From assembly GCF_002854065.1 (NCBI RefSeq), contig NZ_CP024147.1: a DNA stretch of 64,000 bases; one strand, given 5' to 3'. Below are positions 16,001 to 19,000 of this stretch, piece after piece. Origin of the DNA: Escherichia coli. GTDB taxonomy: Bacteria > Pseudomonadota > Gammaproteobacteria > Enterobacterales > Enterobacteriaceae. Made by a program: the position numbers. Position 1 is the stretch's first letter, and each line of letters starts with the position of its first letter.

Positions 16001-19000
16001 AGCCATCCGTCATCCATATCACCACGTCAAAGGGTGACAGCAGGCTCATAAGACGCCCCAGCGTCGCCATAGTGCGTTCACCGAATACGTGCGCAACAAC
16101 CGTCTTCCGGAGCCTGTCATACGCGTAAAACAGCCAGCGCTGGCGCGATTTAGCCCCGACGTATCCCCACTGTTCGTCCATTTCCGCGCAGACGATGACG
16201 TCACTGCCCGGCTGTATGCGCGAGGTTACCGACTGCGGCCTGAGTTTTTTAAATGGCGGAAAATCGTGTTGAGGCCAACGCCCATAATGCGGGCGGTTGC
16301 CCGGCATCCAACGCCATTCATGGCCATATCAATGATTTTCTGGTGCGTACCGGGTTGAGAAGCGGTGTAAGTGAACTGCAGTTGCCATGTTTTACGGCAG
16401 TGAGAGCAGAGATAGCGCTGATGTCCGGCAGTGCTTTTGCCGTTACGCACCACCCCGTCAGTAGCTGAACAGGAGGGACAGCTGATAGAAACAGAAGCCA
16501 CTGGAGCACCTCAAAAACACCATCATACACTAAATCAGTAAGTTGGCAGCATCACCCAGATTGGTTTAATAATTTGTCTTTGTGAGTTAAATACATAATT
16601 TTATACTTGTGATGCAATGAGATTTTCCTTATTGTTGAACTGGCGAATATTGATTTTCCACCTATACTTACCTGGTGTAACCCCAATGATATCAGGTGGA
16701 TAATATGCCATACATATGTTCTATCATTTTGGTGTTGAACTCGTTTGATGTCCGAATTGGTAAAGAAGATATTTTGTTTAAAAAAGGAAGTGCTGTTCTC
16801 ATTGATTACAATTTGAAAGATTTTTTTTCATCAAATATAGATCATGTAATGATCGTAGATGTTGAAGAGAAAACAGTTAATGATTTCTTTAAAAGCAACA
16901 CACTCTCACCTTTTTCTGTAAGAAGGTTTTATCCGGCATACTTGATGGTGGAATGTGAAGATTTTTCATTGTTAAAGAACTTGATTGCATGCTTGAATTG
17001 TGATGGCAGAACTGTGGATTTTGTTAGAAATCAAATATCACTTGCATGTCTTGCTATCTTATCTTCAGAGAAAATAGTGCAAAGTTTTTTATTTGGATGT
17101 CTTAATAGTTTAGGAAGTAAAGTTAAGGCTATTATTCACACGGATATATCTGCAGCATGGAGACTTTGTGATATATCTTCAAGACTGTATCTGAGTGAAA
17201 GTCTGTTAAAAAGAAAATTAAAGCACGAAGGCTTATCATTTAGTAAATTAATTCTTGAAGAGCGAATGGTGATGGCGGAAAGGTTATTAAGCTACAATTT
17301 ATATTCTGTTGGAAAAGTTGCTGAGATATGCGGTTATGAAAACACGTCATATTTTGTAAGTGTTTTCAGAAGATATTTTGGTGTTCCTCCCCATCAATAT
17401 TCATCAAGATTTTTTTTAGAAAAAGACATGATGTAACGTGATGCGTTTTAATGATTTTGTAATTTTCGTATTTGATAATTGTATGCTGCTTTCAGCTACG
17501 CCAGAATAATCGCTGGCGTTTTTCTTTTTGAATAGATGTTCAAGCCTTACGCTAATGTAACTTCTATACCTTTCCTCTTCGTTCCGAACCGTGTACACCA
17601 TCCGTTATTTGCGGAGGTGAGGCGGTGATGCTGCCAACTTACTGATTTAGTGTATGATGGTGTTTTTGAGGTGCTCCAGTGGCTTCTGTTTCTATCAGCT
17701 GTCCCTCCTGTTCAGCTACTGACGGGGTGGTGCGTAACGGCAAAAGCACTGCCGGACATCAGCGCTATCTCTGCTCTCACTGCCGTAAAACATGGCAACT
17801 GCAGTTCACTTACACCGCTTCTCAACCCGGTACGCACCAGAAAATCATTGATATGGCCATGAATGGCGTTGGATGCCGGGCAACCGCCCGCATTATGGGC
17901 GTTGGCCTCAACACGATTTTCCGCCATTTAAAAAACTCAGGCCGCAGTCGGTAACCTCGCGCATACAGCCGGGCAGTGACGTCATCGTCTGCGCGGAAAT
18001 GGACGAACAGTGGGGATACGTCGGGGCTAAATCGCGCCAGCGCTGGCTGTTTTACGCGTATGACAGGCTCCGGAAGACGGTTGTTGCGCACGTATTCGGT
18101 GAACGCACTATGGCGACGCTGGGGCGTCTTATGAGCCTGCTGTCACCCTTTGACGTGGTGATATGGATGACGGATGGCTGGCCGCTGTATGAATCCCGCC
18201 TGAAGGGAAAGCTGCACGTAATCAGCAAGCGATATACGCAGCGAATTGAGCGGCATAACCTGAATCTGAGGCAGCACCTGGCACGGCTGGGACGGAAGTC
18301 GCTGTCGTTCTCAAAATCGGTGGAGCTGCATGACAAAGTCATCGGGCATTATCTGAACATAAAACACTATCAATAAGTTGGAGTCATTACCTGGGTGTTC
18401 ATCCCAATAAGTGATGAAAAATTAAACAGGTGTAAGTACGTCATCTGTCCGGTAAGCCCCCTAAGAGCCAAATTAAGTGAAGTTAAACGAAGACTGCCAG
18501 TTGTTACAGGAACGATGGCCTCTTTGCCAGGGCACTGCATTCAGTCATCTGTGCGCGTTACTCTAACTGGCACTCGAACGTCGGCGATGGGGTTACCGGT
18601 GGATCAGGCCGTTCCTGTGGCGTAAACGTTTTTATGTCAGTACCAACAGATTTACCACATTTATCATCTTAACAGTTTGAGTGTAAATGCAGGCTGCGTC
18701 GCAAAGGGAGGAAACTGAGTGGCGTGTTCAGTCTAAAAGAGGGTTGATGCCAGCATACAGGGCGAAGCTGGTCAACAAGTCAACATTAATATAATGGAAT
18801 ATTCGGAGAGAAACGTCAGGCAGTTGACCTTAAATGAACAGGAAGATACATCCCCAGGAAAATTAATGCTGGTGTAATAAATACACCAACATTAATCCGG
18901 TCTGATTATTAATCAGACAAATATCGTTAATTCGTCGAATTTTAAATCAACGTTTTTTCTTACGACCCTGAACGGCCTTAAAACGTGGATTAGATTTACA

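What the first reader, a model, noticed from the sequence alone, without database searches (positions are those of the whole stretch)
16557..17623. AT-rich AppY/EnvY-like AraC regulator bracketed by inverted IS1 copies
Seen: a 246-aa AraC-family gene in a visibly AT-rich segment with its own strong terminator, flanked by IS1 B and C in inverted orientation. The IS1 B duplication shows the gene was originally contiguous with the prophage moron region. Established: AppY-like prophage regulators are H-NS-silenced and rewire host stress and anaerobic genes. Inference: a horizontally acquired regulator that the IS1 pair could mobilise.
Basis: partly seen in the sequence, partly recalled or inferred. 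Interest (0 to 1): 0.45.

Follow-up and report, generated by a model that had tools for sequence, protein, structure and literature searches.

The report
Prophage AraC-type regulator stranded between IS1s
This is an intact but uncharacterised phage-borne AraC-type regulator gene, closest to the acid-resistance regulator PatE, and its two IS1 neighbours come from ordinary prophage decay, not from a transposon that carried the gene here.

Summary
An AraC/XylS gene lies at 16705-17436 (+). Its GC is 32% in a 49% GC window, and a terminator follows at 17498-17529. Identical 768-bp IS1 copies in inverted orientation flank it.

IS1 B has a perfect 9-bp target duplication. Removing it restores the intergenic region seen in IS1-free prophages. 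IS1 C has no duplication. It sits 1 nt before the holin start codon and joins the prophage to the matA-ykgL spacer, so it marks a deletion junction.

The gene is a lambdoid-phage moron. It occupies a conserved Q - lipocalin - YbgA-like - AraC - holin cassette, in about 1,000 of 5,426 complete E. coli genomes and in isolated phages.

It is full-length homologous to GadW, AppY and YdeO (31-34% identity). It is not specifically related to EnvY. Its nearest studied relative is O157 ECs_0287, which I take to be PatE (about 53% overall, 72% in the DNA-binding domain).

Nothing shows that the IS1 pair moved the gene. The arrangement occurs in one genome, at the gene's ancestral position. This is a new member of a known kind, of low interest.

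The parts
13367..13744 (+). Antiterminator Q gene of the lambdoid prophage remnant; left border of the moron slot
   Evidence: RefSeq annotation of the 100%-identical record NZ_CP182139.1, mapped to window coordinates. The order is the same in CE10 and in phages IdasGreatGrand and 1H12.
13900..14424 (-). Lipocalin (Blc-like) gene, first gene of the three-gene moron cassette
   Evidence: phrog_2809, 326 bits.
14617..15576 (+). YbgA-family (DUF523/DUF1722) gene, second cassette gene
   Evidence: phrog_3275, 753 bits.
15780..15788 (.). Left copy of the 9-bp target-site duplication CAGATTGGT of IS1 B
15789..16556 (-). IS1 B, 768 bp; a simple insertion 148 bp upstream of the regulator's ATG, with its IRL end facing the gene
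   Evidence: Removing it in silico restores the CE10 spacer.
16557..16565 (.). Right copy of the target-site duplication CAGATTGGT
16580..16607 (+). Promoter-like site (TTGTGA-16-TATACT), retained downstream of IS1 B; a candidate native promoter
   Evidence: It is a consensus match only: the number of such sites in the region (4) does not exceed shuffles (4.9).
16692..16697 (+). Shine-Dalgarno-like AGGTGG, 7 nt upstream of the ATG
   Evidence: Read directly from the sequence.
16705..17436 (+). AraC/XylS-family regulator CDS, 243 aa (WP_001146308.1): an N-terminal beta-rich domain and a C-terminal double helix-turn-helix
17498..17529 (+). Intrinsic terminator (stem ACGCCAG/CTGGCGT, 8-nt loop, T-run)
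17613..17623 (+). Orphaned ribosome-binding site of the holin gene essD (GGAGGTGAGGC). In intact prophages the next bases are T ATG.
   Evidence: comparison with CE10.
17624..18391 (+). IS1 C, 768 bp, no target duplication. It is a deletion junction between the prophage and the matA(ecpR)-ykgL intergenic region.
   Evidence: The right flank aligns to K-12 at 292 bp upstream of ykgL.
10197..10964 (-). IS1 A, 768 bp, no target duplication. It replaces the immunity and replication region between the kil-like gene and ybcN.

Best explanation
The gene encodes a transcription factor carried as a 'moron', an accessory gene of a lambdoid phage. It occupies the slot between the late antiterminator Q and the holin, as the last gene of a conserved three-gene cassette (lipocalin, YbgA-like, AraC-like).

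The protein has an Rns/ToxT-type N-terminal domain and a GadX-type double helix-turn-helix. It belongs to the small E. coli clade that contains PatE, YdeO, GadW and AppY. PatE, YdeO, GadW and AppY all activate the glutamate-dependent acid-resistance (AR2) genes.

Inferred, not shown: in a lysogen the gene is transcribed from its own promoter and stops at its own terminator. The protein then binds AT-rich promoter DNA of host stress genes, most plausibly gadE and hdeAB, which are PatE's targets.

Shown: in this genome the prophage has been dismantled by IS1.
- IS1 B inserted 148 bp upstream of the start codon. It is a simple transposition with a 9-bp duplication.
- IS1 C mediated an adjacent deletion. 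The deletion runs from 1 nt before the holin ATG to the matA-ykgL spacer.

The gene is therefore bracketed by inverted IS1 copies by accident of decay. It did not arrive as a composite transposon.
For: Family:
- Pfam HTH_18 and HTH_AraC score above their cut-offs.
- Full-length BLASTP: GadW 33.8% (E = 5e-46), AppY 31.8% (E = 3e-41), YdeO 31.6% (E = 4e-38). The N-terminal domain alone gives E = 1e-9 to 1e-10.
- In a neighbour-joining tree the protein groups with ECs_0287. The two share 72% of the DNA-binding domain and 40% of the N-terminal domain.
- The recognition helices are 9/10 and 9/12 identical to ECs_0287.

Structure:
- The AlphaFold2 model has pLDDT 85.6.
- Foldseek matches Rns, CsvR and ToxT over the full length (E = 1e-11 to 1e-7). 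The DNA-binding domain matches GadX 3mkl with TM 0.92 and rmsd 1.5 A.

A real, selected gene:
- dN/dS is 0.27 between the window allele and the 82.7% allele of phage 1H12.

Phage moron:
- The order Q - lipocalin - YbgA - AraC - holin is the same in the CE10 prophage and in isolated phages IdasGreatGrand (99.2% aa) and 1H12 (82.7%).
- PHROG phrog_1450 scores 358.7 bits.
- The gene has a terminator and is 32% GC against 49% for the window.

IS1 history:
- Target duplication of IS1 B and restoration of the spacer on its removal.
- IS1 C junctions.
- Genome context thrW - P4-like island - prophage remnant - ykgL.

Functions of relatives:
- PatE activates gadB, gadC, gadE and hdeAB. AppY directly targets gadE (PMC10877973; PMC10057817).
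Against: - No expression or binding data exist for this protein. The target prediction rests on about 53% identity to a protein that I equate with PatE only by locus (Z0321, 'putative regulator, prophage CP-933H'; ECs_0287 in Sakai Sp1).
- N-terminal identity to ECs_0287 is only 40%, so the signal the protein responds to may differ.
- The promoter-like site is no better than chance.
- IS1 B may have cut the gene off from upstream control.
- The gene is frameshifted or disrupted by IS1 in several other lineages, so it is dispensable.
- PsrA and PsrB, the other O157 prophage regulators, could not be retrieved for comparison.
Confidence: 0.8

Rival explanations
1. The 2.6-kb unit IS1 B - regulator - IS1 C (15789-18391) is a composite transposon. 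Either it arrived here as a unit, or it is an active vehicle for spreading the regulator.
For: The two IS1 copies are intact, identical and inverted. An IS1 composite of the same geometry, IS1(-)-ysgD-corA-IS1(+), has demonstrably transposed into the lipocalin gene of this same cassette in strain NCTC9080. It has an 8-bp duplication, and removing it in silico restores the gene.
Against: - The outer flanks differ (CAGATTGGT versus TGGGTGTTC), so the unit did not insert as one piece.
- IS1 B has its own duplication across a single IS.
- The gene is exactly where IS1-free prophages and free phages carry it.
- IS1 C is a deletion junction.
- The double-IS1 arrangement is in 1 of 5,426 complete genomes.
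- The one apparent plasmid copy lies in ordinary prophage context without IS1 flanks.
Confidence: 0.05
2. The gene is an orthologue, or a functional duplicate, of AppY or EnvY, the DLP12-region regulators of K-12.
For: It shares a prophage origin, and its N-terminus (MPYICS...SFD) resembles that of AppY (MDYVCS...SFD).
Against: - Identity to AppY is only 31.8%, the same as to GadW and YdeO.
- EnvY matches only the DNA-binding domain; N-terminal identity is 14.8%.
- appY lies at the far right end of DLP12 beside ompT, not in the Q-holin slot.
- The closest NCBIfam equivalog model, YdeO, scores 127 bits against a cut-off of 348.
Confidence: 0.03
3. In this strain the gene is a silent relic. It would be silenced by H-NS because of its AT content, or cut off from its control region by IS1 B, and would contribute nothing to the host.
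For: - The gene is 32% GC.
- IS1 B lies only 24 bp upstream of the candidate -35 hexamer.
- The prophage is heavily decayed.
- The same gene is frameshifted or IS1-disrupted in other lineages.
- appY is reported to be under H-NS control (PMC10057817).
Against: - The reading frame is intact and 1 aa from the common allele.
- Purifying selection acts between alleles (dN/dS 0.27).
- The Z0321 gene of O157, which I equate with ECs_0287, is expressed and RpoS-dependent in stationary phase (PMC2907692).
Confidence: 0.3

Closest known systems
PatE (Z0321 of E. coli O157:H7 EDL933, prophage CP-933H; taken here to be Sakai ECs_0287 in prophage Sp1)
   Same: - Prophage-borne AraC/XylS regulator of about 245 aa.
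- 52-54% identity over the full length, 72% in the DNA-binding domain; recognition helices 9/10 and 9/12 identical.
- Both are closest to the same 50%-identity representative, P0013.
- PatE is reported to activate gadE, gadBC and hdeAB.
   Different: - The N-terminal domain is only 40% identical.
- PatE lies at the right end of its prophage, after the tail-fibre and pin genes. This gene lies in the Q-holin slot.
- No function has been tested for this protein.
- The equation ECs_0287 = PatE is inferred from the locus description, not from a deposited PatE sequence.
YdeO, GadW and AppY of E. coli K-12
   Same: - Full-length homology, 31-34% identity (E = 1e-38 to 1e-46), including the N-terminal domain.
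- The length is similar and the N-terminus starts the same way (M..(V/I)CS).
- AppY is also prophage-encoded (DLP12).
   Different: - Too divergent to be orthologues: the YdeO equivalog model scores 127 bits against a cut-off of 348.
- Genomic locations differ.
- Their inputs (EvgA for ydeO; ArcA, RpoS and H-NS for appY) cannot be assumed here.
EnvY, AdiY and GadX
   Same: The C-terminal double helix-turn-helix is 41% identical. The model's DNA-binding domain superposes on the GadX structure 3mkl (TM 0.92).
   Different: N-terminal similarity is at noise level (13-15% identity; E = 0.03 for EnvY). They form the outgroup in the tree.
Rns/CsvR (ETEC) and ToxT (Vibrio cholerae), virulence regulators with solved structures
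   Same: Both domains have the same fold (Foldseek E = 1e-11 to 1e-7 over about 250 columns). Sequence matches give E = 5e-17 for Rns and 1e-10 for ToxT.
   Different: Identity is 15-20%. The relative domain orientation differs from the model (rmsd about 15 A, TM 0.44). Conservation of the fatty-acid-binding residues was not examined.
IS1 composite transposons (for example the IS1-corA-IS1 unit in strain NCTC9080; Tn1681, recalled from memory)
   Same: Two intact IS1 copies in inverted orientation bracket a short passenger segment.
   Different: There is no duplication at the outer ends here, and the passenger is in its ancestral place. The NCTC9080 unit does have an 8-bp duplication.

Membership tests
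AraC/XylS family | C-terminal domain of about 100 aa with two helix-turn-helix motifs | tested here: met
   Pfam HTH_18 scores 54.9 bits (cut-off 33.6) at residues 161-237, and HTH_AraC 44.1 bits (cut-off 26.6). The modelled domain superposes on the GadX DNA-binding domain 3mkl with TM 0.92 and rmsd 1.5 A.
PatE/YdeO/GadW/AppY sub-clade | Homology over the whole length, including the N-terminal domain, not only the HTH region | tested here: met
   BLASTP covers residues 1-233 or more, with E = 1e-38 to 1e-46. The N-terminal 135 aa alone give E = 7e-10 (GadW), 3e-9 (AppY) and 7e-9 (YdeO). The tree supports the grouping.
PatE subfamily | Closer to PatE than to any K-12 paralogue; conserved recognition helices | tested here: met
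   53.6% identity to ECs_0287 against at most 33.8% to K-12 paralogues. Recognition helices are 9/10 and 9/12 identical. Caveat: ECs_0287 = PatE is inferred from locus descriptions.
PatE subfamily | Activation of AR2 genes (gadE, hdeAB) and increased acid resistance | not testable with these tools
   This needs expression, binding and survival assays.
AppY orthologue | High identity to AppY and a position at the right end of DLP12 beside ompT | tested here: not met
   Identity is 31.8%. The gene lies in the Q-holin slot, whereas appY lies after tfaX beside ompT.
EnvY-like | Similarity to EnvY beyond the shared HTH domain | tested here: not met
   The N-terminal-only E-value is 0.03 and N-terminal identity is 14.8%.
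YdeO (NCBIfam NF007407 equivalog) | Score at or above the curated cut-off of 348 bits | tested here: not met
   127.3 bits.
Lambdoid-phage moron | An accessory gene between conserved phage modules, present in viable phages | tested here: met
   It lies between Q and the holin in CE10 and in phages IdasGreatGrand and 1H12. K-12 DLP12 carries nmpC in the same slot.
Lambdoid-phage moron | Own terminator, and base composition different from the phage | tested here: met
   Terminator at 17498-17529. GC is 32% against about 50% in the neighbouring phage genes.
Lambdoid-phage moron | Own promoter | tested here: inconclusive
   There is one promoter-like site at 16580-16607, but such sites are no more frequent than in shuffled sequence.
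IS1 composite transposon | Two IS1 copies bracketing a passenger segment | tested here: met
   IS1 B and IS1 C are 768 bp, identical and inverted.
IS1 composite transposon | An 8- or 9-bp target duplication at the outer ends of the unit, and the unit found at a new location | tested here: not met
   The outer flanks are CAGATTGGT and TGGGTGTTC. The gene is at its ancestral position. The arrangement is unique to one genome.
H-NS-silenced foreign gene | AT-rich relative to the genome | tested here: met
   31.8% GC against 48.7% for the window.
H-NS-silenced foreign gene | H-NS occupancy, and derepression in an hns mutant | not testable with these tools
   No ChIP or expression data are available for this locus. 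The gene is absent from K-12.

The most novel reading that the evidence does not exclude
The IS1 B insertion is not neutral. It puts a 768-bp block of about 53% GC 24 bp upstream of the candidate -35 hexamer. That could relieve H-NS-type silencing of the AT-rich gene, or create a hybrid promoter, much as IS1 and IS5 insertions activate the silent bgl operon. The result would be a constitutively active acid-resistance-type regulator.

An IS1 at exactly the same site, in the same orientation and with the same 9-bp duplication occurs in a different prophage background in strain a7. Its IS1 differs from the window's at 7 of 768 nt. Strain JX21CE35 gave the same single-piece match, but its junction was not inspected. 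This fits either a target hotspot or repeated selection.

After the IS1 C event the unit could also be a nascent composite transposon.
Probability: 0.1. Interest if true: 0.45.

Novelty: new member of a known kind. Interest (0 to 1): 0.2.

Why it matters
Prophage-borne AraC-type regulators such as AppY, PatE and PsrB are known to plug into the host acid-resistance network. This protein is an unstudied relative of that group. About one in five complete E. coli genomes carry it or its 82% allele, and so do isolated temperate phages.

If it also drives gadE and hdeAB, it would be a common, phage-transmitted modifier of acid tolerance in commensal and pathogenic E. coli.

The IS1 bracketing itself matters little. 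It documents how IS1 dismantles a prophage while leaving a moron gene intact.

Tried and rejected
- PsrA and PsrB (z1789, z2104) were sought for comparison. The CP-933N region of EDL933 and Sp6 of Sakai were fetched and searched by tblastn, and no AraC-like ORF was found. The original PatE and PsrB papers are not held. The comparison was dropped.
- A literature search for the protein's accessions and its PHROG id found nothing.
- The plasmid hits were checked as possible evidence of mobilisation. Three records of 0.73, 4.8 and 4.9 Mb are far too large for ordinary plasmids, so I take them for chromosomal sequence. The only near-identical one (CP061260.1) shows the normal prophage context.
- Other genomes whose 11-kb match included two IS1 copies (H29, H30) were checked. 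Their IS1s lie elsewhere and do not flank the regulator.
- I looked for matching 9-mers among the flanks of IS1 A, B and C, which would indicate an inversion between copies. There were none.
- An Rfam scan of 13000-19500 gave only one sub-threshold hit outside the finding.
- A hybrid promoter using TTGGCA in the IS1 end and AATAAT in the flank was considered. The spacing is 19 nt by my own count, so I did not rely on it.
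Full report
**What is there.** The window matches E. coli strain CUWW06 (NZ_CP182139.1) at 100% identity over the inter-IS1 segment and over the aligned 94% of the surrounding 11 kb. It is the only one of 5,426 complete genomes with this arrangement.

An open reading frame runs from 16696 (GTG) or 16705 (ATG) to 17436 on the + strand. The ATG is the likely start, for three reasons:
- AGGTGG lies 7 nt upstream of it.
- RefSeq annotates the 243-aa form, WP_001146308.1.
- Residue 1 aligns with residue 1 of GadW, AppY and YdeO.

The protein carries the AraC-type double helix-turn-helix: Pfam HTH_18 54.9 bits and HTH_AraC 44.1 bits, both above their cut-offs. 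The gene is 31.8% GC (26.3% at third codon positions) in a 48.7% GC window. A terminator follows at 17498-17519, with a 7-bp stem, 5 G-C pairs and a T-run. It folds at -15 kcal/mol, z = -2.9.

**The IS1 copies.** There are three: A 10197-10964 (-), B 15789-16556 (-) and C 17624-18391 (+). Each is 768 bp and they are identical to one another.
- IS1 B is flanked by a perfect 9-bp duplication, CAGATTGGT. Removing IS1 B and one copy of the duplication gives a 351-bp spacer that differs at 3 positions from IS1-free strain CE10. IS1 B is therefore a simple insertion 148 bp upstream of the ATG.
- IS1 C has no duplication. Its left junction lies 1 nt before the ATG of the holin gene essD, between that gene's ribosome-binding site and its start codon. 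Its right flank aligns to the matA(ecpR)-ykgL spacer of K-12, 292 bp upstream of ykgL.
- The genome order is thrW - P4-like island - prophage remnant - ykgL. Given that order, IS1 C marks a deletion. It removed the lysis and structural genes and, by comparison with K-12, probably neighbouring chromosomal genes such as the ecp operon.
- IS1 A also lacks a duplication and replaces the immunity and replication region.

**Where the gene belongs.** In CE10 the order is Q - lipocalin - YbgA-family - this gene - essD/rrrD/rzpD, within a DLP12-like prophage at argU. The same order occurs in two isolated phages, IdasGreatGrand (99.2% aa identity) and 1H12 (82.7%). K-12 DLP12 carries nmpC in that slot.

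So the gene is a lambdoid moron in the Q-holin position.
- About 1,000 of 5,426 complete genomes carry it or its 82% allele.
- The exact protein is on at least 1,000 contigs, with only generic names.
- It belongs to PHROG phrog_1450, 'unknown function'.
- dN/dS between the two alleles is 0.27, which indicates a selected coding gene.
- It is frameshifted or interrupted by IS1 in several lineages, so hosts can lose it.

**Family placement.**

| Compared protein | Result |
|---|---|
| GadW | 33.8% over 234 aa, E = 5e-46 |
| AppY | 31.8% over 233 aa, E = 3e-41 |
| YdeO | 31.6% over 237 aa, E = 4e-38 |
| GadX, AdiY, EnvY | essentially C-terminal domain only |
| ECs_0287 (O157 Sakai) | 53.6% over 235 aa |

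- The N-terminal 135 aa alone still find GadW, AppY and YdeO (E = 1e-9 to 1e-10). For EnvY the value is 0.03.
- The best NCBIfam model is the YdeO equivalog, at 127 bits against a cut-off of 348.
- ECs_0287 lies at the end of the thrW prophage Sp1. It shares 72% of the DNA-binding domain and 40% of the N-terminal domain with this protein. The two recognition helices are 9/10 and 9/12 identical.
- Z0321, the gene named patE, is described as 'putative regulator, prophage CP-933H, O-island 8'. I therefore equate it with ECs_0287. This is an inference.
- In a library of 1.84 billion cluster representatives, only 10 reach E <= 1e-30. This protein and ECs_0287 are both closest to the same representative, P0013.
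- The AlphaFold2 model (pLDDT 85.6) matches Rns, CsvR and ToxT over both domains, and GadX over the DNA-binding domain.

**Likely function.** According to the literature, PatE activates gadE, gadBC and hdeAB. AppY directly targets gadE. GadW, GadX and YdeO control the same AR2 system. From the clade membership and the near-identical recognition helices, I infer a transcription activator acting on AT-rich promoters of the acid-resistance network. I put this at roughly even odds. Its input signal is unknown, because the N-terminal domain has diverged. H-NS silencing is plausible from the base composition alone and could not be tested.

**Mobilisation.** The outer flanks of the IS1 B-gene-IS1 C unit share no duplication. 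The gene is in its ancestral place. The arrangement is unique to one genome. The one near-identical 'plasmid' copy is ordinary prophage context. The unit therefore did not transpose here.

Future mobilisation cannot be excluded. In strain NCTC9080 an IS1(-)-ysgD-corA-IS1(+) unit of the same geometry has inserted into the lipocalin gene of this same cassette. It has an 8-bp duplication, and removing it restores the gene.

**Verdict.** The protein is related to AppY but equally to GadW and YdeO. It is not specifically EnvY-like. Its closest studied relative is PatE. The gene is an uncharacterised member of a known kind of prophage regulator, and the IS1 bracketing is incidental prophage decay. 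Interest is low.

Noticed in passing
L009:6412-9653 (E. coli NCTC9080, NZ_LR134295.1): A true IS1 composite transposon, IS1(-)-ysgD-corA-IS1(+), sits inside the lipocalin gene of the same moron cassette. It has an 8-bp duplication, CAAAAAAC, and removing it in silico restores the gene (300/300 columns, 99.3% to CE10).
   Followed up: yes
L014:8530-9297 (E. coli strain a7, NZ_CP122496.1); window 15789-16556: Strain a7 carries an IS1 at exactly the same site, in the same orientation and with the same 9-bp duplication as IS1 B. Its prophage has a different early region, and its IS1 differs from the window's at 7 of 768 nt. This points to a target hotspot, or to shared ancestry followed by IS1 homogenisation. 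Strain JX21CE35 gave the same single-piece BLAST match, but its junction was not inspected.
   Followed up: partly
L015, L017, L018 (strains SCEC020001, MINF_9A, DJH_183sputum): Independent IS1 insertions hit the cassette elsewhere: inside the AraC-like gene, inside the YbgA-like gene, and between the lipocalin and YbgA-like genes. The regulator is also frameshifted in some lineages. The AT-rich cassette appears to be a recurrent IS1 target.
   Followed up: partly
window 10197-10964: IS1 A has no target duplication. It lies between the kil-like gene and the ybcN module, so the prophage immunity and replication region has been deleted.
   Followed up: partly
window 18392-19000: The right flank of IS1 C is the matA(ecpR)-ykgL spacer. 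Compared with K-12, the ecp fimbrial operon and neighbouring genes between thrW and ykgL appear to be missing. RefSeq marks ykgL as frameshifted in the identical record.
   Followed up: partly
window 13830-13873 (+): A sub-threshold Rfam hit to 'Betaproteobacteria toxic sRNA' (28.6 bits, gathering 50, E = 0.011) lies just downstream of Q. It is probably chance, or the late-operon terminator region.
   Followed up: no
L020 (EDL933 CP-933N region) and L016 (Sakai Sp6): Reviews place the AraC-like regulator PsrA (z1789) on O-island 50. tblastn found no AraC-like ORF in the fetched parts of that prophage (EDL933 1625000-1674999; Sakai from 1545000 on). Its position or identity remains unresolved here.
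   Followed up: partly
L008:14626-27564 (CUWW06, upstream of the window's prophage): A P4-like island (integrase, P4-family primase) sits at tRNA-Thr thrW. It is followed by a lambdoid integrase gene that IS2 has split.
   Followed up: no
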